The notes under the pieces are model-generated. The model ran no database searches and was not told the DNA's origin. It was given only the letters and a program-made list of their open reading frames with translations. DNA of 64,000 bases from Thermoleophilia bacterium. GTDB lineage: Bacteria > Actinomycetota > Thermoleophilia > BMS3ABIN01. How positions within the stretch are numbered: the first letter of the stretch is position 1; each line of letters starts with the position of its first letter. The DNA lies in contig JBAZZU010000003.1 of assembly GCA_041658605.1 (NCBI GenBank), positions 23,354 through 87,353 of the forward strand. The letters run 5' to 3'. Position numbers and translations under genes: made by a program. Positions 2,453 through 57,896 of the stretch are shown here, in pieces.

Positions 2453-2865
2453 TTGAACTGTCGATGTTCTCCAGCCCGGCACAGATAGCGCTGGCCAGGA
2501 TAACCGGGCTCGGCTCGGGTATGCCTGCGAGCGCACCGGGTACCACGACGATGATCCTTCGCCTTCGACGAATCGAGGATCCCCAGCGCGACCTGGAAGA
2601 ACTCCAGACGAAGGACTGGGACGACCCGCGAGCGAAGGAGGCCCGCAAGCGAATCAAGGCCGGCGCTGACTCAGGTGTCGGCCTGGACTCCGATGGGCAT
2701 TACACGCTCGACGGGCGCCGCTGCTGCTACGGGCTGATGCACCGGCTCTCAAACCGCGAAAAAGTGGCCTGTGAAGACGGCGTTGAGCGGGACCTTCAAT
2801 GCAATCGCCGGTGGCGCTGTTCCTGCCGGGCGCTCTGGGAAGCGCAGTACGAGGTGCTATCGTGA
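2449..2865 (+). CDS. Hypothetical Cys-containing protein
   Basis: GTG 2449 overlaps the previous stop. Ends with TGA overlapping the GTG of the portal candidate. Confidence 0.35.
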   Translation: MIELSMFSSPAQIALARITGLGSGMPASAPGTTTMILRLRRIEDPQRDLEELQTKDWDDPRAKEARKRIKAGADSGVGLDSDGHYTLDGRRCCYGLMHRLSNREKVACEDGVERDLQCNRRWRCSCRALWEAQYEVLS

Positions 2866-4508
2866 GCGACGATAACGCGGTCAACGCGGCTCAAGAGGAA
2901 CTCCTTCGACGGGCGACGATCCGCAACGTGCCGGAGACCCCGCTCTACCAGACTGCCGGTATCGGTGGCACGATCGAGAAGAGCCAGACCGCGTTCGGTG
3001 GGCTCTATCTCTCCTATGACGTGCTTCGCCTGCTACGCGAAAAGGTGCCTTCGTACAACATCATCCACTCGGTAAGGCATACGCAGATTGCGCGGATGTC
3101 GGAACAGTGGACCGGAAAACCGATTGATGTAGGTTGGGAAGTGGTCCACAAGGACCACAACCGCCAGGATGTCAAGGTCCCGGAAGGGTTTCAACGACTC
3201 ATCGATGAAGCGAGCCGCTACCTGCTCGAACCCGATCCGGGTGGTGAGGCCAGTACAACCGCGAGTTTCCTGGTTCCTCTCTGGGAAGACTTCGCCACGA
3301 TCAACCACCCATGCGCCCAGGTGCTGCGGAACCTTGCCGGACGCCCCGTTGGCATTCGCTGGGTGGACGGTGGGATCATCTGGCCCATGCTGGAGTGGAT
3401 GCGCTGGTACGAGAAGGAGAACCCCTGGCCGGGCAAGGTTCCGACCTCGTTTGAGGATCGGGTTGACGCAATCGCCAACCGAGTGAAGCGCGACCTGCAA
3501 GGGAAGCGCTGGTGCCTCGTCCGCGACGGTATCCCCCAGCGGACCTATCGAGATGACGAGTTGATCGTGAAGCCGTTTGTCAATCGAACGGACGTGCGAT
3601 GGCTTGGGTACTACCCTGGAAAGGTTGAATCCTCCCTTGAGATGGGCCTCCACGCTTTCAACGCGATCGAGTCCAACGGTGGATGGTTCACAAAGGGCGC
3701 ATGGGTGGAAACCCTGCTTGCCCTTACCGGAAACGTGAGCGACGAAGACTTCAAGCGCGTGCGCGAGGACATGCGCCTATCAACGCAGGGAGTCCAGAAG
3801 AACCAGCAGGTTCCGCTTGTGCGCTTGGGGGAGACAACGGGTGATATTGACCTGAAAACGATTCAGATCAAGAAGAACCCGCAAGAAATGGGCTTCCAGG
3901 CCTGGATATCGTTCCTGTTCTCTGCACAGGGCGCGATCTACCGGATGGACCCGAGCACGTTCAACATGAAGCCATGGGACGGCGGGTCTAACCCGTCGTT
4001 GAACGCCCCAAATCGCGAGAAAGAGATCGCACTCGCGAAAGAAGAGGGCCTCCAGGGTGACCTCGCGCACCTGAAACGCTCGTTCCTTGACCCCTTCGTC
4101 CGGGAGATTCATCCGGACCTTCGCCTGATCTGGCATTATGGCGACTTCGACCCGGAGAAAGAGAACCGCGTCAACGAGATCCGGATCCGGGTGGATACCA
4201 CAATCAACGAGATCCGCCTGGAACAGGGCAGGCGCCCGCTCGGGTTTTGCCTGACGGATGACAAATACGAAAGCGCCTCCGACGAAGAAAAGGCCAAGCA
4301 CGACGTGAACCCCTACAATCACGTTCAGAGCATGGCCATGCAAAGCGCCACGCAACAGGCCAAGGCGGTCCTACAACCTCCCGAGCCTCAACCCTACGGC
4401 GAAGACTGGCAGGAACCCGACGGAGAGCCCCAGGGCCAACCAGGAGCGCTTGAGCAGGAAGGGCAGCCGTTCCAGAAGTCGGTCCGCGTCTATGTGGAGG
4501 ACTTGTGA
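2862..4508 (+). CDS. Portal protein candidate
   Basis: 548-aa protein between terminase and MuF-like gene (canonical terminase-portal-MuF order). GTG start overlapping upstream stop. Assigned by position and size only. Confidence 0.45.
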   Translation: MSDDNAVNAAQEELLRRATIRNVPETPLYQTAGIGGTIEKSQTAFGGLYLSYDVLRLLREKVPSYNIIHSVRHTQIARMSEQWTGKPIDVGWEVVHKDHNRQDVKVPEGFQRLIDEASRYLLEPDPGGEASTTASFLVPLWEDFATINHPCAQVLRNLAGRPVGIRWVDGGIIWPMLEWMRWYEKENPWPGKVPTSFEDRVDAIANRVKRDLQGKRWCLVRDGIPQRTYRDDELIVKPFVNRTDVRWLGYYPGKVESSLEMGLHAFNAIESNGGWFTKGAWVETLLALTGNVSDEDFKRVREDMRLSTQGVQKNQQVPLVRLGETTGDIDLKTIQIKKNPQEMGFQAWISFLFSAQGAIYRMDPSTFNMKPWDGGSNPSLNAPNREKEIALAKEEGLQGDLAHLKRSFLDPFVREIHPDLRLIWHYGDFDPEKENRVNEIRIRVDTTINEIRLEQGRRPLGFCLTDDKYESASDEEKAKHDVNPYNHVQSMAMQSATQQAKAVLQPPEPQPYGEDWQEPDGEPQGQPGALEQEGQPFQKSVRVYVEDL

Positions 4509-8539: not shown

Positions 8540-8579
8540 GGCCCCCATCGGGATCATCCTGGTGGGGGCGTTTTCTTTC
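8540..8579 (+). terminator. Rho-independent terminator after the 819-aa gene
   Basis: 13-bp GC-rich stem (GCCCCCATCGGGAT / ATCCTGGTGGGGGC, two G-U wobbles), 3-nt loop, then GTTTTCTTTC. Confidence 0.6.
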
Positions 8580-8590
8580 AGGAGTTCAAG

Positions 8591-9961
8591 ATGCCCTATA
8601 AAACCGTTCCGAAGCACCTCCACGGCTTGACCCTGGCCCAGGCCAACCGCTGGGGGTCCGTGTTTGATGCGGTTCAGGGCTCCACTGGCGACTCCGAGAA
8701 AGCGGCTCGGGTGGCTTGGGGGGTGATGAGGAAGGCTATCATGGCGGTCCGTGTTCCAGGCCATACCAGAAACGGACACTATGTGAAACCCTACCTGCGG
8801 ATGATGGACCGCGCCGAGGCCCAGGCGGGACCAGGCGAGCGCATCGTTTACCGGGCGTCCAACGAGAACGCTCCCGAGGTCGGTACGCACTACACCGAGC
8901 AGAAGGAGCACGCGGTCGCCTACACCGATAATTCTGGTTTCGGTGGCTCAAAGGTCCATCGGTACGCGATCAAGCCGCAGAACGTGGCGGATACGGTCGG
9001 GGAGGAAAGGAACGGTCTTCGAGGACTGGCGCTTGCCTACCTGCGGGCGCTCGACCCTGAAGACGCGGCAGAGGTGAAGGAGAAGACCAGAAGACGACTT
9101 GGCGTGGATGACGACGAGCGGATCACGTCGAAGCACGTCGCGCAGGATTGGGATGAGCGCGGGCTGACTCATGTCTTCCATGTTCTGGAGCACGATCCCC
9201 GGGTTGAACAGGCGATATCGCAGGTCCACGACTGGATCCGGTTTGAGGATGATTTCCCCGAGGGGTCGATTACCTGGAAGCGTCTTGGTGGAGAAAAGCC
9301 GATGAACAAGGGTCTTGTACTGGAGGCCTCAGATACCAACCCCGCAGTCAAGCGCTGGAAGCAGATCGATCGTGGCCACTCCGAGGAAGGGCACCGCTTC
9401 CTTTCGCGGGTCCATGCGGGCGGTGGGCAAATGGCCATCACCCAGGGCCATGCGGACGAGCCGCACGTCAAGAGGCTCCTTCGAGAAAAGTTGATTCAAC
9501 TCAAGAGGAACCCGGGTCACCACTGGAACGAGTACACGGCGCACCTCACGAAGGAGGGCACGAAGTACCATGAGGCCTATCGAGCCGCGCACGAGCAGAC
9601 AGGAAAGCAGGAGAGCCTGTTCAAGGGCGTGGTCTGCATCTACATGATCCGCAGTGACACGATGAGGAAAAGCATCCTTGAGAAGGCGGTTATCCCGGCG
9701 CTCGACATGGTTCCGGAGGACTTGGAGGAAGACGCTACCCCGAACACCTGGACCGAGAACGGGTATACCGTCTCATGGCGACGGGGCAAGCGCGGGCATG
9801 GGTCGGTTACCTTCGAAGGGAACGGGCTGGCTATGCCGTTCGTGATGACCGCTGCGGGCAAGAAGCACGCTCGGATCGTCGCAAGGGACGCGTCGGCGCT
9901 GTTGGCGAAGGGCAAGATCCCGCTTCTTGACGGGGTATTCAGGATGCGGAGAAAGACATGA
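8591..9961 (+). CDS. ChaB-domain protein with long C-terminal extension (456 aa)
   Basis: N-terminus MPYKTVPKHLHGLTLAQANRWGSVFDAV...AARVAWGVMRKA matches the ChaB family signature (MPYKT...LP...AQ...AW.AVK). AGGAG RBS. ATGA overlap with the next gene. Confidence 0.55.
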   Translation: MPYKTVPKHLHGLTLAQANRWGSVFDAVQGSTGDSEKAARVAWGVMRKAIMAVRVPGHTRNGHYVKPYLRMMDRAEAQAGPGERIVYRASNENAPEVGTHYTEQKEHAVAYTDNSGFGGSKVHRYAIKPQNVADTVGEERNGLRGLALAYLRALDPEDAAEVKEKTRRRLGVDDDERITSKHVAQDWDERGLTHVFHVLEHDPRVEQAISQVHDWIRFEDDFPEGSITWKRLGGEKPMNKGLVLEASDTNPAVKRWKQIDRGHSEEGHRFLSRVHAGGGQMAITQGHADEPHVKRLLREKLIQLKRNPGHHWNEYTAHLTKEGTKYHEAYRAAHEQTGKQESLFKGVVCIYMIRSDTMRKSILEKAVIPALDMVPEDLEEDATPNTWTENGYTVSWRRGKRGHGSVTFEGNGLAMPFVMTAAGKKHARIVARDASALLAKGKIPLLDGVFRMRRKT

Positions 9962-11769
9962 ACCAGATCGCGAATCAGCCGGGCGTTCATCTTGACCATT
10001 TGAAGCATAGGTGGGTTCGAGATGAGGACGTGAAACCAGGCACGCGGTTTTATGTGCCTCACCATGAGGAATTGGACGTTCGGTCTGTCAAAGACGGGAA
10101 GGCAGAGGTGGGTTTGGTTGGCCACCCCATCACTGTGGACGTGCCTGAAAAGTCGGTGAAGTACTTTCATGCAGACATGCATGGGCAGTTGAACCACAAG
10201 CCCGATAGTGGCAACGAGCATGTTGACGCCGTAATTAGAGGGGAGGGTGAACACCTCGGCAAGGGCAACGACGGGATCGTTTATCGCCACGGGGAGAAAG
10301 TGGTCAAGGTCTCAACGACCGTCCCTTACCAGCCCTTCAACCGTGGGCAGCACAGGACTCCAGAGGAAGCCCTACGGCATCTTCAAAAGGAGCACGAGGC
10401 CCATACGGCACTCCAGGGGATTCCTGGCGTGCCCGAAGTGGATGGGCAAGAGCATGAGGGGCGATACTGGATGGTTAAGCCGCATCTTTCGCCTACTGGC
10501 GTGGTCGATGAAAAAGAAGCACATCAGGTGCGCGATTCCGTCCGGGCCATGCACGCGAAGGGATGGGTTCTGGGCGATACCGTGCAGGTTGGCCGAGACA
10601 AGTCGGGCGGCATCCAGTTCATGGACCTCGGGTCTGCTCACAAGTCGGATAGCGACTACCAAAGAGAGCACGACGAAGAAAGGTTGGCCTCGTTCTTCCA
10701 TCTTCATCGGTTGAAGTACACGGATCCCCCTGCTGAAGTACAGAAAAAGGAGCGGGTAGCACGCACTCTCCTGGACATGGCCATCAAACACCAGGATCCG
10801 GAAAAGGTCAGGGCGCATCGTATTGAGTGGAAACGACTGGCGAGCGAACACAGGATGAACCTCGTCAGAAAAGACGACTTCGACGGGATGATGGCGTTTG
10901 CGGACATTACCGATGCGATGGAGAAACGGCTTGAAAAGGCCATCTTCCTCAACGGCCAAAAGCGCAACCCCAAGGACTTCGACGAAGCCGCCCTATCTCA
11001 AGGCATCCGCGTGGAGATGGAGCACACCGACGATCCGAAGATCGCGATAGAGATCGCGATGGATCACCTTGCCGAGCGTCCGGACTACTACGATCGGCTG
11101 GAAGAGATGGAAGCGAAGCCGATTCAAAAAGCCATCCTCTCCGGGATCCGCTTTATGTACCTACTACGCAAGTCTCAGCTCAACCTCTTCGACTGGCACG
11201 GCGAACCCGTCCAGCACGAGCACCGCGAGCCGATCCCCACCAGGCCACGCATGGGACCGGGCCCCCTGTTCGCCGAAGAGCGAGCGTCGGCGCCCGTGCA
11301 TGCCCCGCTGCCCCCTATGCCTCCTCCGACCTCGCACACCTTCACCTCCAATATTCACGTCAAGAGCCACCTTCGGCGCCTGCCGTCGGGTGAAGTGGTG
11401 GAGGTAGCCGCGCACGAGAGAACAGCCGATCGGGTAACCCACGACGATCCGAAGCCCCGGCAGACGAAGATCACAGAGTACGCCGACAAGCCGGCGCTCT
11501 TGAAGCCGCCTTCCATGGCACCGCAGCCCCGAGAGATGCCGAAGCCCTTCACGGAAGAGCAGTTAAAAGCGATTGGAGAGGCACGGGTGCGCCAAGAGGC
11601 GGCCGGCGGAACTCCGGGACAAGGAAGGCCCTGGGTACGATGGCCCAGCCAACCAGCGCCTCTCTGCTGCGAAAGCGGGGAGACTTGGGCCCGCGCACCG
11701 GGCAGCGGCAAAGAGCGCCCCGTGGACCTCGCAGGGCGTCCTGCTCCGATGGCAGCAACTGGCGATTGA
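9958..11769 (+). CDS. Protein-kinase-like domain protein carrying a QLNLF motif
   Basis: Gly-rich loop GEGEHLGKGNDGIVYRHGEKVVKV (GxGxxGxV...VxK), hinge-like RYWMVKPHL, degenerate catalytic loop HAKGWVLGD and DLG (DFG-like) motif. QLNLF at aa ~407. The last ~65 aa of this frame have low GC3 and are probably not coding. Confidence 0.5.
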   Translation: MNQIANQPGVHLDHLKHRWVRDEDVKPGTRFYVPHHEELDVRSVKDGKAEVGLVGHPITVDVPEKSVKYFHADMHGQLNHKPDSGNEHVDAVIRGEGEHLGKGNDGIVYRHGEKVVKVSTTVPYQPFNRGQHRTPEEALRHLQKEHEAHTALQGIPGVPEVDGQEHEGRYWMVKPHLSPTGVVDEKEAHQVRDSVRAMHAKGWVLGDTVQVGRDKSGGIQFMDLGSAHKSDSDYQREHDEERLASFFHLHRLKYTDPPAEVQKKERVARTLLDMAIKHQDPEKVRAHRIEWKRLASEHRMNLVRKDDFDGMMAFADITDAMEKRLEKAIFLNGQKRNPKDFDEAALSQGIRVEMEHTDDPKIAIEIAMDHLAERPDYYDRLEEMEAKPIQKAILSGIRFMYLLRKSQLNLFDWHGEPVQHEHREPIPTRPRMGPGPLFAEERASAPVHAPLPPMPPPTSHTFTSNIHVKSHLRRLPSGEVVEVAAHERTADRVTHDDPKPRQTKITEYADKPALLKPPSMAPQPREMPKPFTEEQLKAIGEARVRQEAAGGTPGQGRPWVRWPSQPAPLCCESGETWARAPGSGKERPVDLAGRPAPMAATGD

Positions 11770-12466
11770 CCCTCGCCTGTTGGATGATGAGTTCGCCGAC
11801 GACTTCCCCGGATACAAGAGCCCGAAGCTCCAGGCGGTCATCCAGGCCACGAAGGACCACCTGACGAATCACCCCGAAACCGGCGCCGTGCTTTTCTGTG
11901 AGTACAACGGCGGGATTGAGGCGATGAAGTCGAGCCTGATCGAGGAAGGCTACCGCCCCGAGGACATCGGGGTCTATACGGGCAAGGTGTCAAGCCAGCG
12001 GAAACGGCGCGACCTTCAGAACGACCTGAACAGCGGCAAGATCAAGATCCTCCTTGGCAACACGGCGGCACTTGAGACGGGCGCGAACCTCCAGAAACGC
12101 GCTAACTTTGTCGCTCATCTCAACACGCCATGGGCCCCGGATCGGCTTGTCCAGTCAACCGGGCGAGTCCATCGGCAAGGGCAGGAACGGAAGGTTACCG
12201 TATTTCGCCCGACCGGATCCGAGGTAGAAGAACTCATCGAGCGCGTTGTCTCGCGCAAGCTCCTTCAATCCTCACAGGCGACCGGCGTAACGATGGCCGC
12301 TGACTCTCATGTAGCTGTCTCCATGCGCCGAAAGGGCCGCGAAAAGCTCGACTCCTCCACGATCGCGAAACTGCTGGGAATCGACCCGTCGCTGTTGTCG
12401 CAGAAGGGCGATGAAGCAGAACGCGAGGCCGCAGAGATCAAGGAAATGAAGAAGAGGAAGAAATGA
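11573..12466 (+). CDS. SNF2-family helicase C-terminal lobe (orphan, possibly fused to upstream ORF by frameshift)
   Basis: Helicase-C motifs GKIKILLGNTAALETGANL and QSTGRVHRQGQ (motif VI). No SNF2 N-lobe upstream in any frame. TTG start right after an in-frame TAA. Overlaps 9958..11769 by 197 nt. Confidence 0.5.
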   Translation: MERHGCAKRRPAELRDKEGPGYDGPANQRLSAAKAGRLGPAHRAAAKSAPWTSQGVLLRWQQLAIDPRLLDDEFADDFPGYKSPKLQAVIQATKDHLTNHPETGAVLFCEYNGGIEAMKSSLIEEGYRPEDIGVYTGKVSSQRKRRDLQNDLNSGKIKILLGNTAALETGANLQKRANFVAHLNTPWAPDRLVQSTGRVHRQGQERKVTVFRPTGSEVEELIERVVSRKLLQSSQATGVTMAADSHVAVSMRRKGREKLDSSTIAKLLGIDPSLLSQKGDEAEREAAEIKEMKKRKK

Positions 12467-14184
12467 ACGACTCCGAAGCCACGAATCTCCTGCGCGCCTT
12501 GGCCCCCGTCGGTGGGTCTCCTGGTGGGTTCGACCCCAAGAAGCGCCGCGTGCTCGTCATGCGGCTTCATCGGTATCTGGTGGAGGATGGCGGCTACATC
12601 CCAGCGTGGCTCAAGAACGAGGCGGCCGAGATGCGGAAGGGCGTGATCCTTTACGTCGAGTTGCACAAGGCCGCTCAACTTGGGCTCTTCGGTGGTCAGG
12701 GTCGGGAGTTTCGCCCGGAGGTGCCGAAGCCGCATGGTGGTGGTAAGCCTCGTGGGCCGCAGCAGACCGGGATGACCTCGGGCGGGCTCTTCGGCACGGT
12801 CTGGGTCAAGGACCATGATCGGGTGGTGAATGGGCACGTCGAGCACGTTGACGGTCATGAGAGGAAGGTGGTGGGGAATGTCCACGCGCCCACGTTGACA
12901 GGAAAGGAGGAAGGTGGTAGGGTCGAGAGTGAACCTTCTCCGAAAGAGGAAAGCATGACCCGGCACCCTGACGCTCCGGAAGGATTCGAACCGGTTGACA
13001 TGTCCATTCATGGAGCCCATAAGGCACCATCGAACGAAAAGGGGCAACAGGGCTCTTTCAACTACTGGTATCCGACGCTGGAATCGGCTCGGGCAGGCCA
13101 GAAGCACCATGAAGAGCAGCAACGAGTAAAGGGGGATATGAAGCGGGCGCGGGAACATGAGAAGATCGCTCGCGGATCGGCAAAGTTCATTGAGGCTGAA
13201 ACTCAACGAAGAGCAAAACTCGCGGCGGCAGAGATTCGGCGCACCGCTGTTCCTTTTGTTCACCCGAGTATCTATGAATATCGGGACTACATCAGAGAGC
13301 AGGGTGGTTTCGTGGAAGATGGTGGGTGGAAGGTGCCAGCCGCAGCTCACGCCGCCATTACGGAGCACATCGAGGAGCGGAATCGGAAATTGGCCATCAA
13401 GCGCCAAACGAAGCCATCAGTAACCCCACCGGTTCCGGCCGCACTGAAATACATACCCATACAGCACTCGAACACCTACGACTATCGGGAAGACATCAAG
13501 AAAGCCGGTGGTCGGTGGGACAATAACCAGCGGGTCTGGATGGTCCCGGAAAACAGGCATGCCGAACTAATCGCCAAGATGACGCCTGCGCCTGCGCCCC
13601 CTCCCGCAGCTCCTTTGCCGACGATCGCACCAGGAGAAAAGGAATACACCAGATTTGAGAATGGATCGCGTCGTATGAAGCCCGCTCATCCGTTGGCTGT
13701 CGGAGACGTGGTGTTTCGAGGGGATGGCGCAAACCGAACTTACCAGACGGTCACGAAAGTAAGGCCTTCGCTCTTCCGTTCCGAAAACGATCAGGAGGAC
13801 TTTGGAGAAACCGGAAGAGGTGCAGGTTGGTATCATCCGTATACCGTTCGACCTGCTACTGAGGAGGAATCGGCCAACCTCCGCGGCAAGCACGCAGAAG
13901 CAGACGCAAAGGTCAAGGCTGCGACTGCCGCAAAAATGGCGCTACAGTCAGCCATCCAGACGGCGGAATATCCGAAGAAGGCTGAACCATCAGGAGAGAG
14001 CATCAAGATTGGTCAAAATGAAACAATTCAGGTTGAGCCAGACCTTCAACACGCGTGGCACATCAAGTATAACGGTCGTGATGGCGACAACTGGGCCTAC
14101 AACAACCTGGGCGGCCACTCGATCGCGCATCGGTTCCCAATGACTCCTGAACTATCAGGACACATCGAAGCGCTGAAAGTCTAA
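12463..14184 (+). CDS. Hypothetical protein (573 aa) with QLGLFGG motif and two tandem ~40-aa repeats
   Basis: ATGA overlap with the upstream gene. KAAQLGLFGG...RVVNGHVEHV module shared with 16185..18518. Repeats YEYRDYIREQGGFVEDGGWKVP / YDYREDIKKAGGRWDNNQRVWMVP. Confidence 0.5.
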   Translation: MNDSEATNLLRALAPVGGSPGGFDPKKRRVLVMRLHRYLVEDGGYIPAWLKNEAAEMRKGVILYVELHKAAQLGLFGGQGREFRPEVPKPHGGGKPRGPQQTGMTSGGLFGTVWVKDHDRVVNGHVEHVDGHERKVVGNVHAPTLTGKEEGGRVESEPSPKEESMTRHPDAPEGFEPVDMSIHGAHKAPSNEKGQQGSFNYWYPTLESARAGQKHHEEQQRVKGDMKRAREHEKIARGSAKFIEAETQRRAKLAAAEIRRTAVPFVHPSIYEYRDYIREQGGFVEDGGWKVPAAAHAAITEHIEERNRKLAIKRQTKPSVTPPVPAALKYIPIQHSNTYDYREDIKKAGGRWDNNQRVWMVPENRHAELIAKMTPAPAPPPAAPLPTIAPGEKEYTRFENGSRRMKPAHPLAVGDVVFRGDGANRTYQTVTKVRPSLFRSENDQEDFGETGRGAGWYHPYTVRPATEEESANLRGKHAEADAKVKAATAAKMALQSAIQTAEYPKKAEPSGESIKIGQNETIQVEPDLQHAWHIKYNGRDGDNWAYNNLGGHSIAHRFPMTPELSGHIEALKV

Positions 14185-14186
14185 TC

Positions 14187-14465
14187 GTGCTGCTTCTTTT
14201 CGTTCTCCTCCTCTCCTGCGCCCCAGAACCGCCAGAAGTCTGCAATATGGTCTCCGTGCCCTGGGAGCGCTCGACGCTCAAGGCGATCGAGGTTTACCTC
14301 GACTACCTGCCCTGTGAGGCCACGATCGGCTGCGAGTCGCTTAACGGGACCGTGACGATTTACGACCTGGAGCCCGTTTGCGGAGTCGCCTGCCGGGTAT
14401 ACGGATCCTGCCGCCCGGACGAAACGCCGCTGGAACTTCGATACTCCGCGTGCGACTGCTCATAG
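14187..14465 (+). CDS. Cys-rich putative lipoprotein (92 aa)
   Basis: GTG start. Signal peptide LLLFVLLLSC with lipobox L-L-S-C. 9 further Cys. Tail-to-tail 6-nt overlap with the antisense methyltransferase. Confidence 0.4.
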   Translation: MLLLFVLLLSCAPEPPEVCNMVSVPWERSTLKAIEVYLDYLPCEATIGCESLNGTVTIYDLEPVCGVACRVYGSCRPDETPLELRYSACDCS

Positions 14466-15272
14466 CAGCGTAGTTTGCTCCCGCTCCTCATCCTGGCCCA
14501 TTGGCAGACCTATCTGAACGCCAGCGGCCTCGATGCTCTCCAACCTGCGCGCCGCGATGTCGAGATAAGCCGGCTCCGTCTCGATCCCGATGTACTGGCG
14601 CCCAGAGAGTAATGCAGCCTCTCCGATGGCCCCAGAACCTGCGAAAGGGTCAAGGACCGTGCCGCCATGGGTCACGACGGAAACGAGCCACGCGCAGACC
14701 CTTGGGGGCTTTTCGGTGACGTGCTCGCGGTCCCTTGAAGACGCCTCGGTGACGTAACCGGGCAGGCAGCCGATCCCTGGTCTGTCGGTCGGCATCGGTC
14801 CAAGGGTTCCGACGGCGATGAATTCGCCCGGGTTCCAGAACCAGCCCATCCGAGGCCTTGACGATCCGGGAGGCTTCAACCACGGGTGGATCCCGCGAAG
14901 GATGAACCCGCCCACTTGGAGCGCATCACAGACCGCGCCAACCTGCCGCCAGTCGGAAAAGACGCATGCCGGACTGCCGGGGAGCATGACCCGAGTCGCA
15001 CGGGCCGCAATCTCCCCAAGCCAGATCGTGAAGGATCGCTGGTCTCGGTTGTCGCCTGCGAAGTTCGGAAGGTATTCGGCCTGCGCGGAATCGGAGCTGA
15101 GATACTTCTTGCGGGTGTCTAGCGTTCGATCACCACGGAAGGCACCCCCCGAAGAGTACGGGGGATCCGTGATCAGGGCGTCAACGCGGACGCGTTCGCG
15201 TTCGAGATCCGCGAGTACGAACAGGGAGTCGCCGTTGTAGAGTTTCCAGGTCTTTCCTTGGGCGTGTAGCAT
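14460..15272 (-). CDS. Beta-class DNA methyltransferase (N6-adenine or N4-cytosine)
   Basis: Motif IV LITDPPYSSGG near the N-terminus and motif I DPFAGSGAIG near the C-terminus (IV before I gives beta class). Confidence 0.8.
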   Translation of the reverse strand: MLHAQGKTWKLYNGDSLFVLADLERERVRVDALITDPPYSSGGAFRGDRTLDTRKKYLSSDSAQAEYLPNFAGDNRDQRSFTIWLGEIAARATRVMLPGSPACVFSDWRQVGAVCDALQVGGFILRGIHPWLKPPGSSRPRMGWFWNPGEFIAVGTLGPMPTDRPGIGCLPGYVTEASSRDREHVTEKPPRVCAWLVSVVTHGGTVLDPFAGSGAIGEAALLSGRQYIGIETEPAYLDIAARRLESIEAAGVQIGLPMGQDEEREQTTLL

Positions 15273-15437: not shown

Positions 15438-15653
15438 ATGACCTGCCCCCGCTGCCACCAGCAATTCACCCCGACAGCAGAGGAGTCCAAGTGCCCCGAC
15501 TGCGAGCGGGAGATCCTTCGTCGCAGGTACGAGATCGCCAGGATCCGCCGACATGGCGAGACCTGGCTTCTCGTCTCCCCGCGCCATGTTCTCGCGGGTG
15601 GGTTCGCCTCGCGCGAGCAGGCCGAGAGGTTCCGTTCCGCCAGGGTGGGGTAG
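15438..15653 (+). CDS. Small zinc-ribbon protein (71 aa)
   Basis: CPRC...CPDC pair. Lies divergent from the methyltransferase across a 165-bp intergenic region. Confidence 0.4.
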   Translation: MTCPRCHQQFTPTAEESKCPDCEREILRRRYEIARIRRHGETWLLVSPRHVLAGGFASREQAERFRSARVG

Positions 15654-15660
15654 ATCCGGA

Positions 15661-16158
15661 ATGGACCTCTTCAACCATCAAGGCGCCGTCTTCTCGGAGG
15701 ATCGCGTCTACCGCTATCGGCTCTGGCGGCATCCTCCTGATACCCGGTTCGCCGCGTTCATCGGGCTCAACCCGAGCACCGCTGACGAAACCCAGAACGA
15801 CCCGACCGTGACCCGTTGTATCGGGTTCGCTCGGTCGTGGGGTCTTGCGGGCATGGAGATGTTGAACCTTTACGGGTTTCGCTCGACGGATCCCGATCCG
15901 ATGTTCAAGCACTCTGCTCCTATAGGACCGGGCAACGACGAGGCGATCCTGGCGGTCGCTCGTGAGGCGTCGATCGTGATCGGCTGCTGGGGCGCGTTTC
16001 CTCAAGCCCGCATCCGTGCTATCGAGGTTCATAGGATGCTTTCCTCTGCCGGTATCGTGCTTCATGCTCTGCAATTGACTTCGCAGGGTTGGCCTCGGCA
16101 TCCTCTCTACCTCTGCCGAGACCGGGAGCCCTTTCCATGGAGGATCCCTGCGGGGTAA
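15661..16158 (+). CDS. DUF1643-family protein
   Basis: YRYRLWR...FIGLNPSTADETQNDPTVTRCIGFA...NLYGFRSTDP...CWGAF closely matches the DUF1643 signature as I recall it. ATG at 15661 inside track ORF 15553..16158. Confidence 0.6.
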   Translation: MDLFNHQGAVFSEDRVYRYRLWRHPPDTRFAAFIGLNPSTADETQNDPTVTRCIGFARSWGLAGMEMLNLYGFRSTDPDPMFKHSAPIGPGNDEAILAVAREASIVIGCWGAFPQARIRAIEVHRMLSSAGIVLHALQLTSQGWPRHPLYLCRDREPFPWRIPAG

Positions 16159-18521: not shown

Positions 18522-21500
18522 ATGTTCACCCCCTGCAAGTGCTCCAAAGGCTGCAAGGCCCACGCCATCATCACAGCGCTCGACATGGACGGGACCACCT
18601 ACCCTGTGCGAGTCCCCTATGAGCACCGCTACTCCTCGATCGGCTGGGGCGACCGTCCGCGCGTGCGGTTCGGTGATTCCGTAGCCGTCGAAGTGGCGCG
18701 CGGAGAGAAGGGCGTCCAGGCTCTTGACGAACTCGGCAACCTTCACCGGTTGAACCATGGCGCGTTCTCCACCTGGATTCCGGAAAGGAAGGGCAAGGCT
18801 CTCAAAAAGGCGGAAGTCAAAGCCGGTCAACGATGGATCACGGTCCACCCCGGCGGCGAAGGCTCAACGGGCGTCCCCATCCTGATTCAGGAGGAGAAGG
18901 ACGGAACCCACCGAGTCGTGGCAGGCGCGGGCGGGAAACTGACGCACCTCCGGCTTGAGAACGTCAAGAGCGCGGACGAATACGCCAAGTCCAAAGCCGA
19001 CAAGAAGGCCGCAAAGAAAGAGAAGGACAAGACCGCTCCGAAGGAAGTCAAGGAGACCAAGAAGGAAGCCCACGAGAAGAAGCGCGAGGCCGAGCGCCAG
19101 TTCGTCAAAAAGGTGAGCACGAAACTCGGGGGAGTCTCCGAGGATCGCAAGCGTGACGAATCCGAATCTCCCGCCGTCGCACGTCGGCTTGACGCGCAGC
19201 ATCATCGAAAGCAGGTCAACGAGGCCAAGAAGCGCGCCCACGGAGCCATGCAGGCGGTCGTTGCAGAGCGGACCGGGCAGGAGAGGGCAAAGGCGCTCAC
19301 CTCCGAGGATACTCCCGAGGTCTCCGCTCACGTTCAGGAAACGATTCGCGCAGAACTCGACGACGAGGAAGCCGCTCAGAAGGCGCGCAAGGAAGCCCGC
19401 GCGCCAAAGATGATGGCCTCCCGGGCCGTGGACCCCGGAGCGCAAGAGAAAGCCGTCGTCCATGCCGTTGAAGCGGTCAAGCAGGCCCCTGAGCAGCTCG
19501 ACAAGACACTTGAAGCGCTCGGCGGGCGTACTGACTCGGGCGAGGTTCTCCGGCTCTCTGTCGTGCCTGCCGTGGAGGCGAAACGCCGGTCCCTGCAAGC
19601 GCTCCAGGACGCCCAGATCATCCATGAAGCCCTATCGAACGGGCCCCCGAAAGACGAGAAGCAGCAGGCGATCGTGGAGCAGGCCCTGGGCGGCGCGAAA
19701 CTCGGAACCGAGGAGGCCAAGGAAGCACTCCAGACCGCCATGGTCTCGAAGGTCAACGAAGCCGAGCGGCACGAAGTCCAGTCCAGGAAGCTCGACCAGA
19801 TCGCACGGGACAAGGGCGAAGACGTGGCCGACCGTGCTCTCCGGGCGACCGACGCGGCAAGGGCCATCGCTCGCGAAACACAGGAAGCGCGGCGCCTGGG
19901 ACTCGACAATCCCGAGAAGACGCCCCTTACTGTGCCTGAAACCGATGAACTCATGGACGTGGTGAAGGACCTCCAGGACCTGAAAGCGAAGACCCGAGCC
20001 CTGAAGAACGTCGTCAAGGACGCGGAAAAGGGCAACTTCGATCGGTCGCGCCGTGCGTTCAAGATGGACGTTCAAGCGGCCCCCAAAGACGTGGAGATGT
20101 CGATCGAGGAAGAGGTTCAGCGCTCACTCACGGAGCAGCTCCTCGGCGCGGTCAAGACCGATCGCCCGGAGTACATCCAGGGCGTCACCGCTGGGCACTA
20201 TGACGCCCTCGCGGATGTCGGCTTGCAGATTGGCGGCCAGCGCTACCTGGACCGCCCCACGGTGGACGCTCTCGGCGCGAAGAATGCCGCGATCCTACTC
20301 CGGTATGGGCTTGACCAGGACGGGCACGATATGGACGCCGTTCGCCAGGCCGTGGAAGAGTCGCACGTTGACGCGGTGAAAACCGAAGCCGCCAAAGCCA
20401 TCGAGAAAGCGCGATCCTACGTCCCTGGGTTGGTCCACGAAGTCGATACAACCGAAGACGCCGAAGCAGCAATGGCGCACTTGGACGCCCACGAATCCGA
20501 GATCGTCTCAGCGCAGAAGGCCCTTTCCTCGGCGATCGGGAGGCTCGAAGGTACGGCTACCCTTGGCCAGGCGCTGCGCGACAAGATGCCCGATAGCCTT
20601 TCCGTTCGGGGCACCTCTCTTGAATCGTCTCAGCAGTGGGTTCATTCGCTCGGGCTTCACCCTGCCGATTACGAGGTGAACGCTGCACGGAACGAGATTA
20701 CGATCCCCCGCCGATCGTGGGACAAACTGCTATCCCGAGACTCGCGCGAGGACATCGACAACCGGCGCGTGGTCAACGAGATCAAGGCAGGTCAGCACGA
20801 CATCAAGGGTTGGCTTCCTCCCGGCATTGCCTATCGAGAGGCCTCCACGTTCACCGCGCCCGTTCCCAGCGCTCCTCGCATGTGGGAACCGCTTTCGTTC
20901 GATGGCGACCTCGACGAGGCCATCAAGACACACGTCGGCGCCCGGTTGGCATCCGGTGAGCATATCGGGGAGATTGCGTCTGACATCTCCTCGGAAGGTG
21001 TTGCTTCGCAGGCCCCGAGCGCGAAGGAATACCGCGCGGCACTCGAGCGGCACTTCCCTCTCTACAAGGAAGGTGGAAAGGAACGGCTCACCGAAGCCCT
21101 GGCGGCTCTTGGACCTCGGCCGGAGAACGAGAACGAGGCGATCGAGTGGGACCGAAAAGCCATTAAGGCGGAGCAAGCGGAAAAGGTAGGCCTGACGCAC
21201 TTCGCCGACAAGTGGGAGTCCTGGGCCCAGGACTACATGGAAAAGAAGCACGGTGGCGAGGGAGCCTATCACTCGCAGAACCTGCATCCCGAGGACGTGG
21301 CGACCCGTGAGGCCATTTTCCGGACGCTGGCGGATCACCCGGAGGGCAAGATCGCCTTCAAGCCGTCGGGTCAACTGACACCGCAGGAAGAGGGGGTGAT
21401 TCGGGACCGGTACTATCAGAGGATGGGGATCGACCCGAAGGTGAAGGTTGACGAGGCAAGGTTCCAAAGGGAGATGGCCCAGGCCAGTATGCCGGAAGGG

Positions 21501-24224
21501 CAGTGGGAGACCATGGTCAAGGAACACGAAGGAGAAGGCATAACTCCAGGGCAGGCCAAGGCCCGAGCCATGTCTCACCTTGGAGAGAAGGTCAAGAATG
21601 AGGCGTATTACCAAGAACTGACGAAACCATGGGACAAGACGGCTGGAACTGCATCTATAGACGAACCAAAGGATGTAAAACAACGTCGCCAATACCTGAC
21701 GCGCGAACTCGCCGCACTCGGGAAAGAGCCCGACCGCCAAGACAAAGAGGCCAACCAGAAATGGCAAGAAGCGCGTAATGCTGTTTTTGAAAAGGCCGAC
21801 ACCGATTCTGGCAAGGAAGAACTTGATGAGACCAGTCCCGAATACCGGGCTTGGCAAAAACGACGTGATGCTGTTCTTGCCCGTCATCCGCGAGCGGGTA
21901 TGCAAAGCGCAATCGATAGTCTCGACAAAGCCGATCCGGAGTACGCAAGCAAAGTCGAAGCCATCAAACAGGACGCAGCGACCGCCCCCACCGCCTGGGG
22001 CAACTACGTTGAAGCGCACGGTTCGCGGCAACTGGCGATCGAGGCCCTGCAAGATGAGATGAGGGGCGAATTCGTCAAGACGTACCAGGAGCACCACGGA
22101 AAGGTCACCGGGAACCCGCTACGGGTGGGCGTTCAGGACGTAACCAACAAGGCGCGCCATATCCGGGCAACAGGATCCCCCGAGGAAATCGCGCAAGCCA
22201 GGGCAGAGGAAAGGTCCAGGCTATCCAGTCTCCAGAAGAGGCAGGGCGGCGGATTTACCGAGATGGGCGGTGCAGGGTCGGCGAAAGCCCTGTTCACAAA
22301 AGCACTTGAACAAGACGAAATCGACAAGTCAAGTCAACTCGCTATGTTCGGATCGGCTACCTCCTCGGTGGCGGACCTCCCCGAAAAGAAGATCGAGCCG
22401 AAGACCGGCCAGCGGTGGAGTCTCGGAACCCGCGCGGAATCGCAACTTGAGAGCGTCATCAATGGCGGCCTGGGCCAGCAGTTTCAACCAGGAAGCCCGA
22501 TCCGGCTTTTCGGTGGGCTCAACATGGATGGCGATCGAATCCACCAGCAGCGGGTTCTTCGCCAACTCGATCGGGTCAAAAGGATGGCGGCGCTTCTCGG
22601 CACGGGCGCGGGGAAGTCGCTCACCTCGATCGCAGGGTTCACCCAGGCGCACGCGAAGGGTGAGGCATCCCACGGGCTCTATCTGGTCCCTGCCGCAGTC
22701 CAAGACCAGTTCGGCGGCGAGATGTTGCGCTACACGCAGCCCGGGAAATACAACTGGGCAACGGGTGGCGGAAAGAGCCACGCGGAACGGGTACGGATGC
22801 TCAAGGATCCGTCTATTCATATGCGGGTTATGACACACCAGTCCTTCCGGGATACTGCCCTAAAACTCATGGCAGACCACCATGGTCGGACTACCGAGAA
22901 GATGACAGAGGACTTCGGAAAGGCAGACCCAAAGACCCGCGCCCGGTGGATGCGTGAGGCCTTCGATGCCCACGGGATCCCCCGCCACTTCGTCTATTAT
23001 GACGAGGCGCACACCGCGACCTCCGAGAACGAGAAGAGCGCCTCTCTGACTCATGACGTTGCGACGGCGGTAACGCATCCGTCGAACGCTACCCATCTGC
23101 TTCTCGGGACCGCCACCCCCACGAAGAACAACACCGGAGAGATGCACTCATGGGCCTCGCTACTCGATCCGGACAAGTACGCCGATCGGTGGAAGTTCAT
23201 GCAGAACTTTGGGAGGGAAACCGCCTGGAACCCGAACGCGATCCGTCAAGAACTTGGGCACCGGGTTTACACCGCCAGAATCGACCCCGAAGGAGTATCC
23301 CGAACAGACACCGACAACCCGACCGTGGAGGAAAAGGAAGTCCAGACTGGTGAGAATATGTGGGGTCCAACCTACGAAAAGCAGAAGGTGAAGTCTGCCG
23401 GCAAGCCGATCGAACTTCACCCTACCCAGAAGGCCCGGGTAGATGAGATCACGGCGGCTTATGAGCAGGCATCCACCTCGTTCAAGAAGGGCCATGTGGA
23501 CGTGGAGAGCATCCGGAAAATCAACCCGGCACCGTTCGAGGGTAAGACCGATGAGCAGGCCCAAAGCATCGCGCGGAACATGATGAAGGGCCTTGGCTTC
23601 ACCCGTGACGCGGCGCTGGAGCGGGCGATCAACCGCTCGCCTGTGGGCCAGAACGCGAAACTGGACGCCCTGGCCTCTGTCGTCCAGCATGACCTCGCGC
23701 AGAACTGGACCGATCGGAAAGGCAACGCGCGCAAGGGGAAGGCCTCGATCATCTTTTCGGACTCGGCGCAGGATGGAAAACTCATCAACCAGCACCTTCG
23801 CTCTCTTGGCGTCCGCTCGGCTTTCTATCACGGTGGGCTTCCGAACGAGCAGAAAGAAGCCATCCGCACCGGGTTCCAACCCGAGCAAGGCGAGCCGAAG
23901 CACGACGTTATCGTCGCCACGTCGGCGGCCGAGGCGGGTCTGAACCTCCAACGGGCAAGCGTGCTGCACAATTACGACGTGCCCCAGACTGAGAAGAGCC
24001 ACGCGCAGAGAGCCGGGCGAGCGTACCGGCAGGGGCAACTTGGCGACGTGGAGATTCACAACTGGCACACGAACACGGCGTTCGAGCGTCGGGCGCTTCA
24101 ACTGCTCAAGGAGAAGCGGTATCTCGCTTCCGTGTTTCAGACTCCGATCGGCCATATGGACGACACAGGAACGGGCCTGCGTTATACTCGGATCATCTCA
24201 CGCAAACATGAGGCTGCGGCATGA
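18522..24224 (+). CDS. Giant 1900-aa protein with C-terminal SNF2-family helicase (polyvalent/DarB-like)
   Basis: Complete SF2/SNF2 core: Walker A GTGAGKSLT, DEAH (YYDEAHTA), motif III LLGTATPTKNNTGEMHSWASLLDP, helicase-C with QRAGRAYRQGQ. Long Lys/Glu coiled-coil N-terminal 1300 aa. QLAMF motif just before the helicase. Confidence 0.7.
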   Translation: MFTPCKCSKGCKAHAIITALDMDGTTYPVRVPYEHRYSSIGWGDRPRVRFGDSVAVEVARGEKGVQALDELGNLHRLNHGAFSTWIPERKGKALKKAEVKAGQRWITVHPGGEGSTGVPILIQEEKDGTHRVVAGAGGKLTHLRLENVKSADEYAKSKADKKAAKKEKDKTAPKEVKETKKEAHEKKREAERQFVKKVSTKLGGVSEDRKRDESESPAVARRLDAQHHRKQVNEAKKRAHGAMQAVVAERTGQERAKALTSEDTPEVSAHVQETIRAELDDEEAAQKARKEARAPKMMASRAVDPGAQEKAVVHAVEAVKQAPEQLDKTLEALGGRTDSGEVLRLSVVPAVEAKRRSLQALQDAQIIHEALSNGPPKDEKQQAIVEQALGGAKLGTEEAKEALQTAMVSKVNEAERHEVQSRKLDQIARDKGEDVADRALRATDAARAIARETQEARRLGLDNPEKTPLTVPETDELMDVVKDLQDLKAKTRALKNVVKDAEKGNFDRSRRAFKMDVQAAPKDVEMSIEEEVQRSLTEQLLGAVKTDRPEYIQGVTAGHYDALADVGLQIGGQRYLDRPTVDALGAKNAAILLRYGLDQDGHDMDAVRQAVEESHVDAVKTEAAKAIEKARSYVPGLVHEVDTTEDAEAAMAHLDAHESEIVSAQKALSSAIGRLEGTATLGQALRDKMPDSLSVRGTSLESSQQWVHSLGLHPADYEVNAARNEITIPRRSWDKLLSRDSREDIDNRRVVNEIKAGQHDIKGWLPPGIAYREASTFTAPVPSAPRMWEPLSFDGDLDEAIKTHVGARLASGEHIGEIASDISSEGVASQAPSAKEYRAALERHFPLYKEGGKERLTEALAALGPRPENENEAIEWDRKAIKAEQAEKVGLTHFADKWESWAQDYMEKKHGGEGAYHSQNLHPEDVATREAIFRTLADHPEGKIAFKPSGQLTPQEEGVIRDRYYQRMGIDPKVKVDEARFQREMAQASMPEGQWETMVKEHEGEGITPGQAKARAMSHLGEKVKNEAYYQELTKPWDKTAGTASIDEPKDVKQRRQYLTRELAALGKEPDRQDKEANQKWQEARNAVFEKADTDSGKEELDETSPEYRAWQKRRDAVLARHPRAGMQSAIDSLDKADPEYASKVEAIKQDAATAPTAWGNYVEAHGSRQLAIEALQDEMRGEFVKTYQEHHGKVTGNPLRVGVQDVTNKARHIRATGSPEEIAQARAEERSRLSSLQKRQGGGFTEMGGAGSAKALFTKALEQDEIDKSSQLAMFGSATSSVADLPEKKIEPKTGQRWSLGTRAESQLESVINGGLGQQFQPGSPIRLFGGLNMDGDRIHQQRVLRQLDRVKRMAALLGTGAGKSLTSIAGFTQAHAKGEASHGLYLVPAAVQDQFGGEMLRYTQPGKYNWATGGGKSHAERVRMLKDPSIHMRVMTHQSFRDTALKLMADHHGRTTEKMTEDFGKADPKTRARWMREAFDAHGIPRHFVYYDEAHTATSENEKSASLTHDVATAVTHPSNATHLLLGTATPTKNNTGEMHSWASLLDPDKYADRWKFMQNFGRETAWNPNAIRQELGHRVYTARIDPEGVSRTDTDNPTVEEKEVQTGENMWGPTYEKQKVKSAGKPIELHPTQKARVDEITAAYEQASTSFKKGHVDVESIRKINPAPFEGKTDEQAQSIARNMMKGLGFTRDAALERAINRSPVGQNAKLDALASVVQHDLAQNWTDRKGNARKGKASIIFSDSAQDGKLINQHLRSLGVRSAFYHGGLPNEQKEAIRTGFQPEQGEPKHDVIVATSAAEAGLNLQRASVLHNYDVPQTEKSHAQRAGRAYRQGQLGDVEIHNWHTNTAFERRALQLLKEKRYLASVFQTPIGHMDDTGTGLRYTRIISRKHEAAA

Positions 24225-53193: not shown

Positions 53194-53351
53194 GGTTTCT
53201 CCTGTTTTGGTGGTTCAGTCTTGTGGGTAGTAACATGTTGAGCAGAAAGGGCAAGGCCTCGCGCGATTCGGGCGCGGCGGTAGAAGAATCGGAAGAGGTC
53301 AGCGAAAAGCCAGCCGAGAAGGAAACCGGCGATGAGAAGGGCGTAGTTCAT
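53190..53351 (-). CDS. Small membrane protein (53 aa)
   Basis: MNYALLIAGFLLGWLFADLFRFFY TM helix. ATG overlaps the radical-SAM stop (ATGA), preceded by the repeated AGGAGA element. Confidence 0.35.
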   Translation of the reverse strand: MNYALLIAGFLLGWLFADLFRFFYRRARIARGLALSAQHVTTHKTEPPKQEKP

Positions 53352-57647: not shown

Positions 57648-57896
57648 TCACCAGGGGATAGAACCACGATACCAAGCCACTTTCCCGCGAGTCGGCACGC
57701 CGAGGATCAAGGTGAGAGGATCGCCACGGGACCATGGCCAGGCCACGACGCAAGCGGCGGATCCCTTCGGCAAGGTCCCGAGATACCGGCTTACATCGGG
57801 TAGAATCATCTCCCCGGAGTAGAGGAGGATCGCCACGTCTTCGGCTCGGCAAGGCGATAACTGCGCCTCGCCGACTTTGGCGCGGTCGCTAATCAC
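57648..57896 (-). CDS. Small hypothetical protein
   Basis: ORF coupled to the helicase stop. Confidence 0.3.
   Translation of the reverse strand: MISDRAKVGEAQLSPCRAEDVAILLYSGEMILPDVSRYLGTLPKGSAACVVAWPWSRGDPLTLILGVPTRGKVAWYRGSIPW

What the first reader, a model, noticed from the sequence alone, without database searches (positions are those of the whole stretch)
11560..11770. Frame switch between kinase-like ORF and an orphan SNF2 C-lobe: +1 frameshift, sequencing error or split gene
The SNF2 helicase-C lobe (11573..12466) has no N-lobe upstream. Its frame opens with TTG immediately after an in-frame TAA. It overlaps the last 197 nt of the kinase-like ORF, whose frame there has GC3 ~61% versus ~77% for the helicase-C frame. 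This implies the kinase frame stops being coding around 11570. A +1 shift at CAG_TTA_AAA_G|CGA would fuse the two proteins. A helicase C-lobe without its ATPase N-lobe is unusual in either reading.
Basis: seen in the sequence. Interest (0 to 1): 0.55.

Follow-up and report, generated by a model that had tools for sequence, protein, structure and literature searches.

The report
Truncated phage SNF2 gene, out-of-frame junction
In a novel tailed phage, a SNF2 helicase gene that has lost its ATP-binding half sits out of frame against the end of the preceding effector gene; this looks like an ordinary truncation or recombination scar, not a fused or recoded protein.

Summary
The 603-aa ORF (9958-11769, frame 1) and the 297-aa helicase-C ORF (11573-12466, frame 2) overlap by 197 nt. 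All other gene junctions here overlap by 1-11 nt. GC3 in the overlap is 0.60 (frame 1) against 0.77 (frame 2). A codon-usage changepoint places the switch at 11565-11619.

The C-lobe is a true orphan. Seven relatives with readable upstream sequence (45-52% identity) carry N-lobe and C-lobe in one ORF. No cognate N-lobe occurs in six frames of the window plus 14 kb of flanks. SNF2 homology in frame 2 begins at 11591-11654, next to the frame-2 TAA (11564-66) and TTG (11573). Frame 1 upstream has no SNF2 similarity and no homologue in 1.84 billion proteins, so nothing spans the junction.

The frame-1 codon at the switch, TTA, is the rarest examined (7 of 11,230). Removing one T gives CAG-TAA, 6 nt, then TTG, which looks like a normal gene boundary. 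No +1 recoding signals are present, and two assemblies agree.

Most likely this is a 5'-truncated SNF2 gene abutting an upstream polyvalent-type gene, not a fusion. The C-lobe is undecayed (50 of 54 invariant positions kept), so residual function is possible. Interest is low to moderate.

The parts
9958..11769 (+). Upstream ORF, 603 aa, frame 1 (NCBI name: DUF5661 family protein). It looks coding up to about 11562. The last ~66 codons are an out-of-frame reading of SNF2-derived sequence.
   Evidence: (P0009)
10135..10632 (+). Kinase-like module (aa 60-225). It is 39-42% identical to modules in two long metagenomic proteins, P0010 and P0011.
   Evidence: PDB fold matches are all kinases, from a low-confidence model. 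No Pfam kinase hit.
10993..11118 (+). DUF5661 domain (aa 346-387). In other proteins it co-occurs with Kinase-PolyVal, MuF_C and InPase.
11122..11571 (+). Pre-junction orphan region (aa 389-538). It contains the linker motif VKSHLRRLPSGEVVEVAAHER and has no homologue other than that motif.
   Evidence: 1.84 billion representatives: self plus one motif hit
11563..11575 (+). A/T-rich switch element TTAAAAGCGATTG. It holds the frame-1 TTA (rarest codon examined, 0.6 per 1000), the frame-2 stop TAA (11564-66), a 6-nt spacer and the frame-2 TTG start (11573-75).
11573..12466 (+). Longest frame-2 ORF, 297 aa: a 5'-truncated SNF2 gene (linker helices, RecA2 C-lobe, C-terminal tail).
11591..11779 (+). 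Frame-2 region homologous to the SNF2 inter-lobe helical linker (...GVLLRWQQLAIDPRLL). It lies upstream of the annotated start and inside the overlap. Homology is robust from 11645-11654 and reaches 11591 only in the pairwise alignment with L001.
11780..12466 (+). Gene as annotated publicly (228 aa, 'helicase-related protein', TTG start 10 nt after the upstream stop). It cuts off about 45-60 conserved residues.
11843..12181 (+). Pfam Helicase_C match (motifs IV-VI; QSTGRVHRQGQ intact).
12463..14184 (+). Downstream ORF coupled by an ATGA overlap. Its first 53 aa match the ORF that follows the full-length SNF2 gene in relative L001, so the 3' side of the SNF2 locus is ancestral.
18522..24224 (+). 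Separate 1900-aa ORF with a complete but distantly related SNF2 core (N-lobe and C-lobe, aa 1341-1838). The phage therefore has an intact SNF2 ATPase elsewhere.

Best explanation
The sequence is genuine and holds two reading units, not one fused protein. A phage SNF2 (SWI2/SNF2) gene lost roughly its first 400 codons by deletion or module recombination inside a polyvalent-effector operon (8591-14184). The lost part is the whole ATPase N-lobe plus the first strand/helix block of lobe 2.

What remains begins at about 11570-11590 in frame 2: inter-lobe helices, the RecA2 C-lobe and the tail. It sits directly behind a gene-boundary-like TAA-AAGCGA-TTG. The upstream kinase-like/DUF5661 gene is in frame 1 and lacks a stop there. 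The likeliest cause is either one extra T that turned CAG-TAA into CAG-TTA-A, or a junction that formed out of frame. Ribosomes on the upstream gene therefore read 66 further codons of the SNF2 linker in the wrong frame, up to TGA 11769.

The C-lobe can be made only by weak independent initiation, either at TTG 11573 (297 aa) or by re-initiation at TTG 11780 (228 aa). Without Walker A/B motifs it cannot hydrolyse ATP by itself.

Shown: the frame switch, the missing N-lobe, the position of the homology boundary, and an intact C-lobe sequence. Inferred: the deletion or recombination origin, the T-duplication, and the mode and level of expression.
For: 1. All seven relatives with readable upstream sequence have the N-lobe and C-lobe in one ORF. 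These are L001-L004, L005, L006 (frame open to the contig end) and L008. The other 'C-lobe only' database proteins are cut by contig ends.
2. No cognate N-lobe is found in six frames of the window plus flanks. The positive control scored 212 bits.
3. SNF2 homology starts in frame 2 at 11591-11654. This is inside or next to the codon-usage changepoint interval 11565-11619. The homology boundary and the frame switch coincide, as a single junction would predict.
4. Frame 1 upstream has no SNF2 similarity and no homologues at all.
5. The frame-1 codon TTA at the switch occurs 7 times in 11,230 codons. Frame 1 is best supported up to exactly 11562. Deleting one T gives stop + 6 nt + start, like this phage's other junctions, most of which are gaps of 0-4 nt or overlaps of 1-11 nt.
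6. Two assemblies are identical across the junction.
7. Local synteny with L001 is kept on the 3' side only.
8. Polyvalent loci are known to shuffle modules and to carry small neighbouring ORFs with polyvalent-type domains (PMC5512222).
Against: The SD-like GGAAGAG ends 13 nt before TTG 11573, whereas other genes have GGAG about 6-9 nt upstream, and TTG starts are rare here. Independent expression therefore looks weak.

Codon usage between 11566 and 11605 slightly favours frame 1, by about 4.7 lnL (summed from the per-codon values; ML changepoint 11610). That would fit a shift further downstream within a once-continuous ORF.

The C-lobe shows no decay. It keeps 50 of 54 columns invariant in nine relatives and is no more diverged than intact relatives. 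Either the truncation is recent or the fragment is still under selection.

No close relative exists to show the ancestral state. About 18-20 kb of the ~97-kb genome could not be examined for an N-lobe.
Confidence: 0.55

Rival explanations
1. A real fusion ORF (kinase-like, DUF5661, SNF2 C-lobe; about 835 aa) is interrupted by a one-base insertion somewhere in 11567-11619. The insertion is either a recent mutation in this phage population or a consensus error.
For: Removing one base restores an open 835-aa frame. The upstream ORF has no stop where its coding signal ends. The neighbouring ORFs form one terminator-bounded unit of polyvalent-type modules, in which fusions are common. Codon usage mildly prefers frame 1 up to about 11605.
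Against: No protein in 5.8 billion clusters or 1.84 billion representatives spans the junction. By the criteria of Antonov et al. (PMC3711429), two disconnected hit sets point to adjacent or overlapping genes. Frame 1 upstream is not SNF2-like, so this reading needs two events: an in-frame N-lobe deletion and then a frameshift. It leaves the rare TTA and the TAA-N6-TTG arrangement as coincidences. Two assemblies agree.
Confidence: 0.2
2. A programmed +1 ribosomal frameshift at TTA_AAA_G (tRNA-Lys slipping from AAA to AAG) yields both a 603-aa product and an 835-aa kinase-C-lobe fusion.
For: AAA to AAG re-pairing in the +1 frame is possible. The shift window allowed by the frame-2 TAA and the homology (11567 to about 11650) contains this site.
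Against: The A-site codon is GCG, one of the most used codons examined (39 per 1000), so there is no stop or hungry codon to cause a pause. The SD-like GGAAGAG ends 6 nt before AAA, not the ~3 nt seen in prfB. RNA folding around the site is no better than shuffles (z = +0.48). A run of four A is too short for transcriptional slippage. No relatives exist to show conservation.
Confidence: 0.05
3. The C-lobe-only protein is a selected, expressed stand-alone factor. It could work in trans with another ATPase lobe, or act as a decoy or inhibitor of SNF2-type host defence ATPases.
For: The C-lobe is as conserved as in intact relatives, with motif V and motif VI arginines intact. The 297-codon frame is open with good codon usage. 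It keeps ATGA coupling to the conserved downstream gene.
Against: The fragment lacks the first strand/helix block of lobe 2 (LPxRxDL...Q..LM), which all relatives have. The initiation signals are poor. No second example of such an orphan was found. An intact SNF2 exists in the 1900-aa ORF. The structure model is low confidence (pLDDT 57.5).
Confidence: 0.15

Closest known systems
Phage SWI2/SNF2 ATPases of the polyvalent/DarB-like class (PHROG 62 and 10089; full-length relatives in IMG/VR contigs L001-L004)
   Same: The C-lobe, the inter-lobe linker and the C-terminal tail are 45-52% identical to these proteins. Motifs IV-VI are intact. The gene after it is shared with L001. The setting is a phage effector operon next to structural genes.
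   Different: The whole N-lobe (GLGKT, DEVH, TGTPKPN) and the first block of lobe 2 are missing. The remainder is a separate, out-of-frame ORF.
Polyvalent proteins of phages and conjugative elements (Iyer, Burroughs, Anand, de Souza, Aravind 2017, PMC5512222)
   Same: There is a string of unrelated effector-type modules (kinase-like, DUF5661, SNF2, weak DUF5710). They are joined by repeated linker motifs, encoded next to head genes, and accompanied by a second giant 1900-aa polyvalent-type ORF.
   Different: Here the modules are spread over four coupled ORFs rather than one polypeptide. The kinase-like module does not match Pfam Kinase-PolyVal.
Frame transitions between adjacent or overlapping genes, and singleton frameshifted genes, as classified by GeneTack (Antonov et al. 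2013, PMC3711429)
   Same: The homologue sets on the two sides of the transition are disconnected, and it is a singleton with no conserved cluster.
   Different: The overlap is unusually long (197 nt), and the downstream part is demonstrably a fragment of a larger gene.
Programmed +1 frameshift sites (prfB CUU_UGA; Listeria phage PSA CCC_UGA, the latter from my own recollection)
   Same: The frame change runs in the +1 direction, and a P-site codon able to re-pair (AAA to AAG) is present.
   Different: There is no stop or rare A-site codon, no properly spaced SD-like stimulator, and no conservation.

Membership tests
SWI2/SNF2 ATPase | RecA2 C-lobe with helicase motifs IV, V and VI (arginine fingers) | tested here: met
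   Pfam Helicase_C 46 bits. It keeps 50 of 54 columns invariant in nine relatives, and QSTGRVHRQGQ is present. The PDB sequence hits include SNF2-type remodeller ATPases: CHD4, CHD1, CHD1L, Ino80, ISW1 and a snf2/rad54-family helicase.
SWI2/SNF2 ATPase | RecA1 N-lobe with Walker A (motif I), DExH (motif II) and motif III in the same protein | tested here: not met
   No N-lobe domain in the 603-aa or 297-aa ORF. The N-lobe HMM from relatives finds nothing in six frames of the window plus 14 kb of flanks (control).
SWI2/SNF2 ATPase | SNF2-specific inter-lobe helical region (L..L.+L+Q...P.LL) | tested here: met
   GVLLRWQQLAIDPRLL in frame 2 aligns with all relatives. It lies upstream of the publicly annotated start.
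SWI2/SNF2 ATPase | DNA-dependent ATP hydrolysis / translocation | not testable with these tools
   Needs biochemistry. It is expected to be absent in a lone C-lobe, from general SF2 helicase knowledge.
Polyvalent protein (Iyer et al. 2017) | Two or more unrelated effector domains in one polypeptide | tested here: inconclusive
   The 603-aa ORF has DUF5661 plus a kinase-like module. The SNF2 fragment is in another frame, so there is no demonstrated single polypeptide.
Polyvalent protein (Iyer et al. 2017) | Encoded in a phage or conjugative element next to packaging or structural genes | tested here: met
   Terminase (2-1609), portal homologue (2799-4508), Baseplate_J, and a terminator-bounded unit starting at 8591.
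Polyvalent protein (Iyer et al. 2017) | Domains drawn from the polyvalent repertoire | tested here: met
   DUF5661 co-occurs with Kinase-PolyVal, MuF_C and InPase in P0022 and P0057. SNF2 is a listed polyvalent domain.
Kinase-PolyVal (PF18762) | Significant match to the family profile | tested here: not met
   No hit at E <= 1. hhalign against the P0022 kinase gave probability 0.2%. There is only fold-level resemblance to protein kinases.
Programmed +1 ribosomal frameshift | P-site codon whose tRNA can re-pair in the +1 frame | tested here: met
   AAA_G at 11566-69.
Programmed +1 ribosomal frameshift | Slow A-site (stop or rare codon) and/or a closely spaced SD-like stimulator | tested here: not met
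   The A-site codon GCG occurs at 39 per 1000. GGAAGAG ends 6 nt upstream of AAA. Folding z = +0.48.
Programmed +1 ribosomal frameshift | Conservation of the site and of both frames among relatives | not testable with these tools
   No relative above 52% identity in the viral, metagenome or genome collections.
Translationally coupled adjacent genes | Downstream start within about 10 nt of the upstream stop | tested here: inconclusive
   Not met for TTG 11573, which lies 197 nt before the stop. Met for TTG 11780, 10 nt after TGA 11769, but that start removes conserved residues.

The most novel reading that the evidence does not exclude
The lone SNF2 C-lobe is kept by selection and expressed as an ATPase-less effector. 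It could be made on its own or appended to the kinase-like protein by inefficient +1 recoding. It could act as a decoy that titrates partners of host SNF2-type defence ATPases, or as a trans-acting lobe for the phage's own 1900-aa SNF2.
Probability: 0.12. Interest if true: 0.6.

Novelty: new member of a known kind. Interest (0 to 1): 0.27.

Why it matters
Mainly for annotation. The public record starts the helicase-related gene at 11780, which cuts off about 45-60 conserved residues, and it gives the upstream protein a 66-residue tail that is almost certainly not a real domain.

It is also a clean example of module loss inside a phage polyvalent-effector operon, where the boundary of homology and the change of frame coincide. 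If the undecayed C-lobe proved to be expressed and selected, it would be a rare case of a helicase half-domain reused without its ATPase lobe. Nothing found here requires that.

Tried and rejected
1. My own manual alignment of frame-1 'PQPREMPKPFTEEQLK' to the SNF2 block 'LPPREDLAPYIPPDENQKR' would have argued for a continuous ancestral ORF. A block HMM gave no hit there among 119,000 six-frame residues. Local alignment scores were no better than shuffles (p = 0.92-0.99). Rejected.
2. A frameshift-aware protein-DNA alignment of seven relatives never used a frameshift.
3. Scanning single-base deletions against linker and full HMMs gave flat scores upstream of about 11650, so the site cannot be located by homology.
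4. The search for close relatives found nothing above 52% identity. Covered: phage GenBank megablast (no match), IMG/VR, JGI metagenomes and GTDB genomes (none).
5. Looking for other orphan C-lobes: P0002, P0003 and P0007 are all cut by contig ends.
6. The RNA structure near the site is not exceptional.
7. The AlphaFold model of the 297-aa ORF (pLDDT 57.5) is too poor to judge whether residues 1-70 pack on the C-lobe. It was not fold-searched.
8. Looking for an N-lobe elsewhere found none in the window, nor in about 10 kb to the right and 4 kb to the left. About 18-20 kb of the genome could not be reached.
9. Kinase-PolyVal membership of the upstream module is not supported.
Full report
**Context.** The window is part of a ~97-kb contig deposited as a Thermoleophilia MAG. 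It is in fact a novel tailed phage. It carries a terminase large subunit (2-1609), a portal homologue (2799-4508), Baseplate_J and LysM proteins, and replication genes further right. A strong terminator at 8541-8569 precedes four tightly packed ORFs: 8591-9961, 9958-11769, 11573-12466 and 12463-14184. Two of the three junctions are ATGA overlaps. The third is the finding.

The ORFs carry domains typical of phage polyvalent proteins, and a recurring linker motif, V.SH.RR.PSG..V.V..H.R. DUF5661 co-occurs elsewhere with Kinase-PolyVal, MuF_C and InPase. There is also a weak DUF5710 match.

**Observation.** All the stated features are present.
- The overlap is 197 nt.
- GC3 in the overlap is 0.60 in frame 1 and 0.77 in frame 2. 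Frame 3 reaches 0.74, so GC3 alone is weak evidence.
- A codon-usage likelihood trained on 21 genes of the window puts the frame 1 to frame 2 changepoint at 11610, with a 3-lnL interval of 11565-11619.
- Frame 1 is well supported right up to 11562.
- The other overlapping gene pairs on this strand overlap by 1-11 nt, so the 197-nt overlap is not ordinary.

**Is the C-lobe really an orphan?** Yes.
- The 297-aa ORF matches Helicase_C, phage helicase and DarB-like PHROGs, and solved SNF2-type remodeller ATPases such as CHD4, CHD1 and Ino80.
- Its nearest relatives are 45-52% identical. They are four IMG/VR loci, one JGI metagenome locus, and proteins P0002-P0008.
- Wherever upstream sequence exists (L001-L004, L005, L006, L008), the SNF2 N-lobe and C-lobe lie in one ORF.
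- The database proteins that look 'C-lobe only' are cut by contig ends.
- An HMM of the relatives' N-lobe scores 212 bits on a held-out relative. It finds nothing in the six frames of the window plus 14 kb of flanks.
- The window has a complete SNF2 core in a 1900-aa ORF (18522-24224) and another SF2 helicase at 57893-59875 on the minus strand. Both are only distantly related to this C-lobe.

**Where does SNF2 homology begin?** Frame-2 homology extends upstream of the publicly annotated TTG at 11780.
- It is robust from 11645-11654.
- The linker HMM loses score as soon as the assumed shift point moves past about 11650.
- It reaches 11591 in a pairwise alignment with the closest relative, L001.
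- The frame-2 stop TAA is at 11564-66, and the only frame-2 start codons are TTG 11573 and TTG 11780.
- So the frame-2 open frame, the homology boundary and the codon-usage changepoint all fall within about 11567-11650.
- The retained part corresponds to L001 residues ~395-722. It lacks the N-lobe and also the 'LPxRxDL...Q..LM' block that opens lobe 2 in every relative.

**Is frame 1 upstream part of the same ancestral protein?** I first thought that 'PQPREMPKPFTEEQLK' resembled that missing block.
- A block HMM found no hit there.
- Alignment scores were no better than shuffles.
- A frameshift-tolerant aligner never invoked a shift.
- The 150 residues before the junction have no homologue among 1.84 billion representative proteins, apart from the short linker motif.
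- A search with a hypothetical fusion protein found hits to one side or the other, never both.
- In the scheme of Antonov et al. this pattern indicates adjacent or overlapping genes rather than a validated frameshift (PMC3711429).

**The switch element.** At the point where frame 1 stops looking coding, the sequence is CAG TTA AAA GCG ATT G.
- TTA is the rarest of the codons examined in this phage (7 of 11,230).
- In frame 2 the same bases read TAA AAG CGA TTG.
- Deleting one T gives CAG TAA + 6 nt + TTG. That is a stop and a start in the same frame, close together as at most of this phage's other gene boundaries, which are gaps of 0-4 nt or overlaps of 1-11 nt.
- This suggests that the truncated SNF2 gene already had its own boundary, and that a one-base duplication abolished the upstream stop.
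- A recombination junction that simply formed out of frame would give the same present state.
- Either way, one event can explain both the N-lobe loss or boundary and the frame discontinuity. The fusion reading needs two events.

**Sequencing error or recoding?**
- The NCBI contig and an independent Logan assembly of SRR8449812 are identical over 6687 nt including the junction. They share the same reads, so this argues against an assembler artefact only.
- For +1 recoding, AAA to AAG re-pairing is possible. However, the next codon is GCG, one of the most used codons examined.
- The SD-like GGAAGAG is not at prfB-like spacing. Four A's cannot support transcriptional slippage. The local RNA folds no better than shuffles.
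- Conservation cannot be tested, because no close relative exists.

**State of the fragment.** The C-lobe keeps 50 of 54 columns that are invariant in nine relatives. That is similar to leave-one-out values for intact relatives. It is no more diverged from outgroups than L001 is, and its codon usage is good. The truncation is therefore either recent or the fragment is still constrained.
- Against independent function: the missing first block of lobe 2, a weak SD 13 nt from a TTG start, and an intact SNF2 elsewhere in the phage.
- The AlphaFold model was too poor to help.

**Verdict.** The evidence favours a 5'-truncated SNF2 gene lying out of frame behind a polyvalent-type gene (about 0.55). 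The alternatives are a broken fusion ORF (about 0.2), a selected stand-alone C-lobe (about 0.15) and programmed +1 frameshifting (about 0.05). It is a new but ordinary member of known kinds: phage polyvalent/SNF2 loci and truncated genes. Its practical value is in correcting the annotation.

Noticed in passing
window 57199-57576 (-): A 125-aa phage ORF whose C-terminal half resembles the ribosomal protein bL12 C-terminal domain ([28 protein letters not shown]). Pfam Ribosomal_L12 is flagged in the precomputed gene table.
   Followed up: partly
window 18522-24224 (+): A 1900-aa ORF with a complete SNF2 core at aa 1341-1838 and about 1340 N-terminal residues with no Pfam match. It is probably a giant polyvalent protein.
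   Followed up: partly
window 8591-14184; P0100: A repeated ~25-aa linker motif (V.SH.RR.PSG..V.V..H.R) occurs once in each of three window ORFs and five times in the unrelated 797-aa protein P0100. It may be a conserved inter-module spacer or processing site of polyvalent proteins.
   Followed up: partly
window 10135-10632 (+): A compact kinase-like module shared at ~40% identity with P0010 and P0011. It matches neither Pfam Pkinase nor Kinase-PolyVal, yet all top PDB fold hits are protein kinases. It may be an undescribed polyvalent kinase family.
   Followed up: partly
window 11780: The public annotation starts the helicase-related gene at TTG 11780, which removes about 45-60 residues that are conserved in all relatives.
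   Followed up: yes
window 15553-16158 (+), 14460-15272 (-), 60721-61749 (-): A DUF1643 protein, an N6/N4 DNA methylase and a C5 cytosine methylase are present. A radical SAM protein (53348-54241, -) and a DUF5131 protein lie nearby. Together they suggest an extensive DNA-modification / anti-restriction repertoire.
   Followed up: no
window 8541-8569 (+): A strong intrinsic-terminator-like hairpin (13 bp, 9 GC, followed by a T run) lies between the 819-aa head-region gene and the effector operon.
   Followed up: no
whole contig: The contig is deposited as a Thermoleophilia bacterium MAG sequence but looks like a complete or near-complete ~97-kb phage genome. It has no nucleotide match in the GenBank phage collection.
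   Followed up: partly
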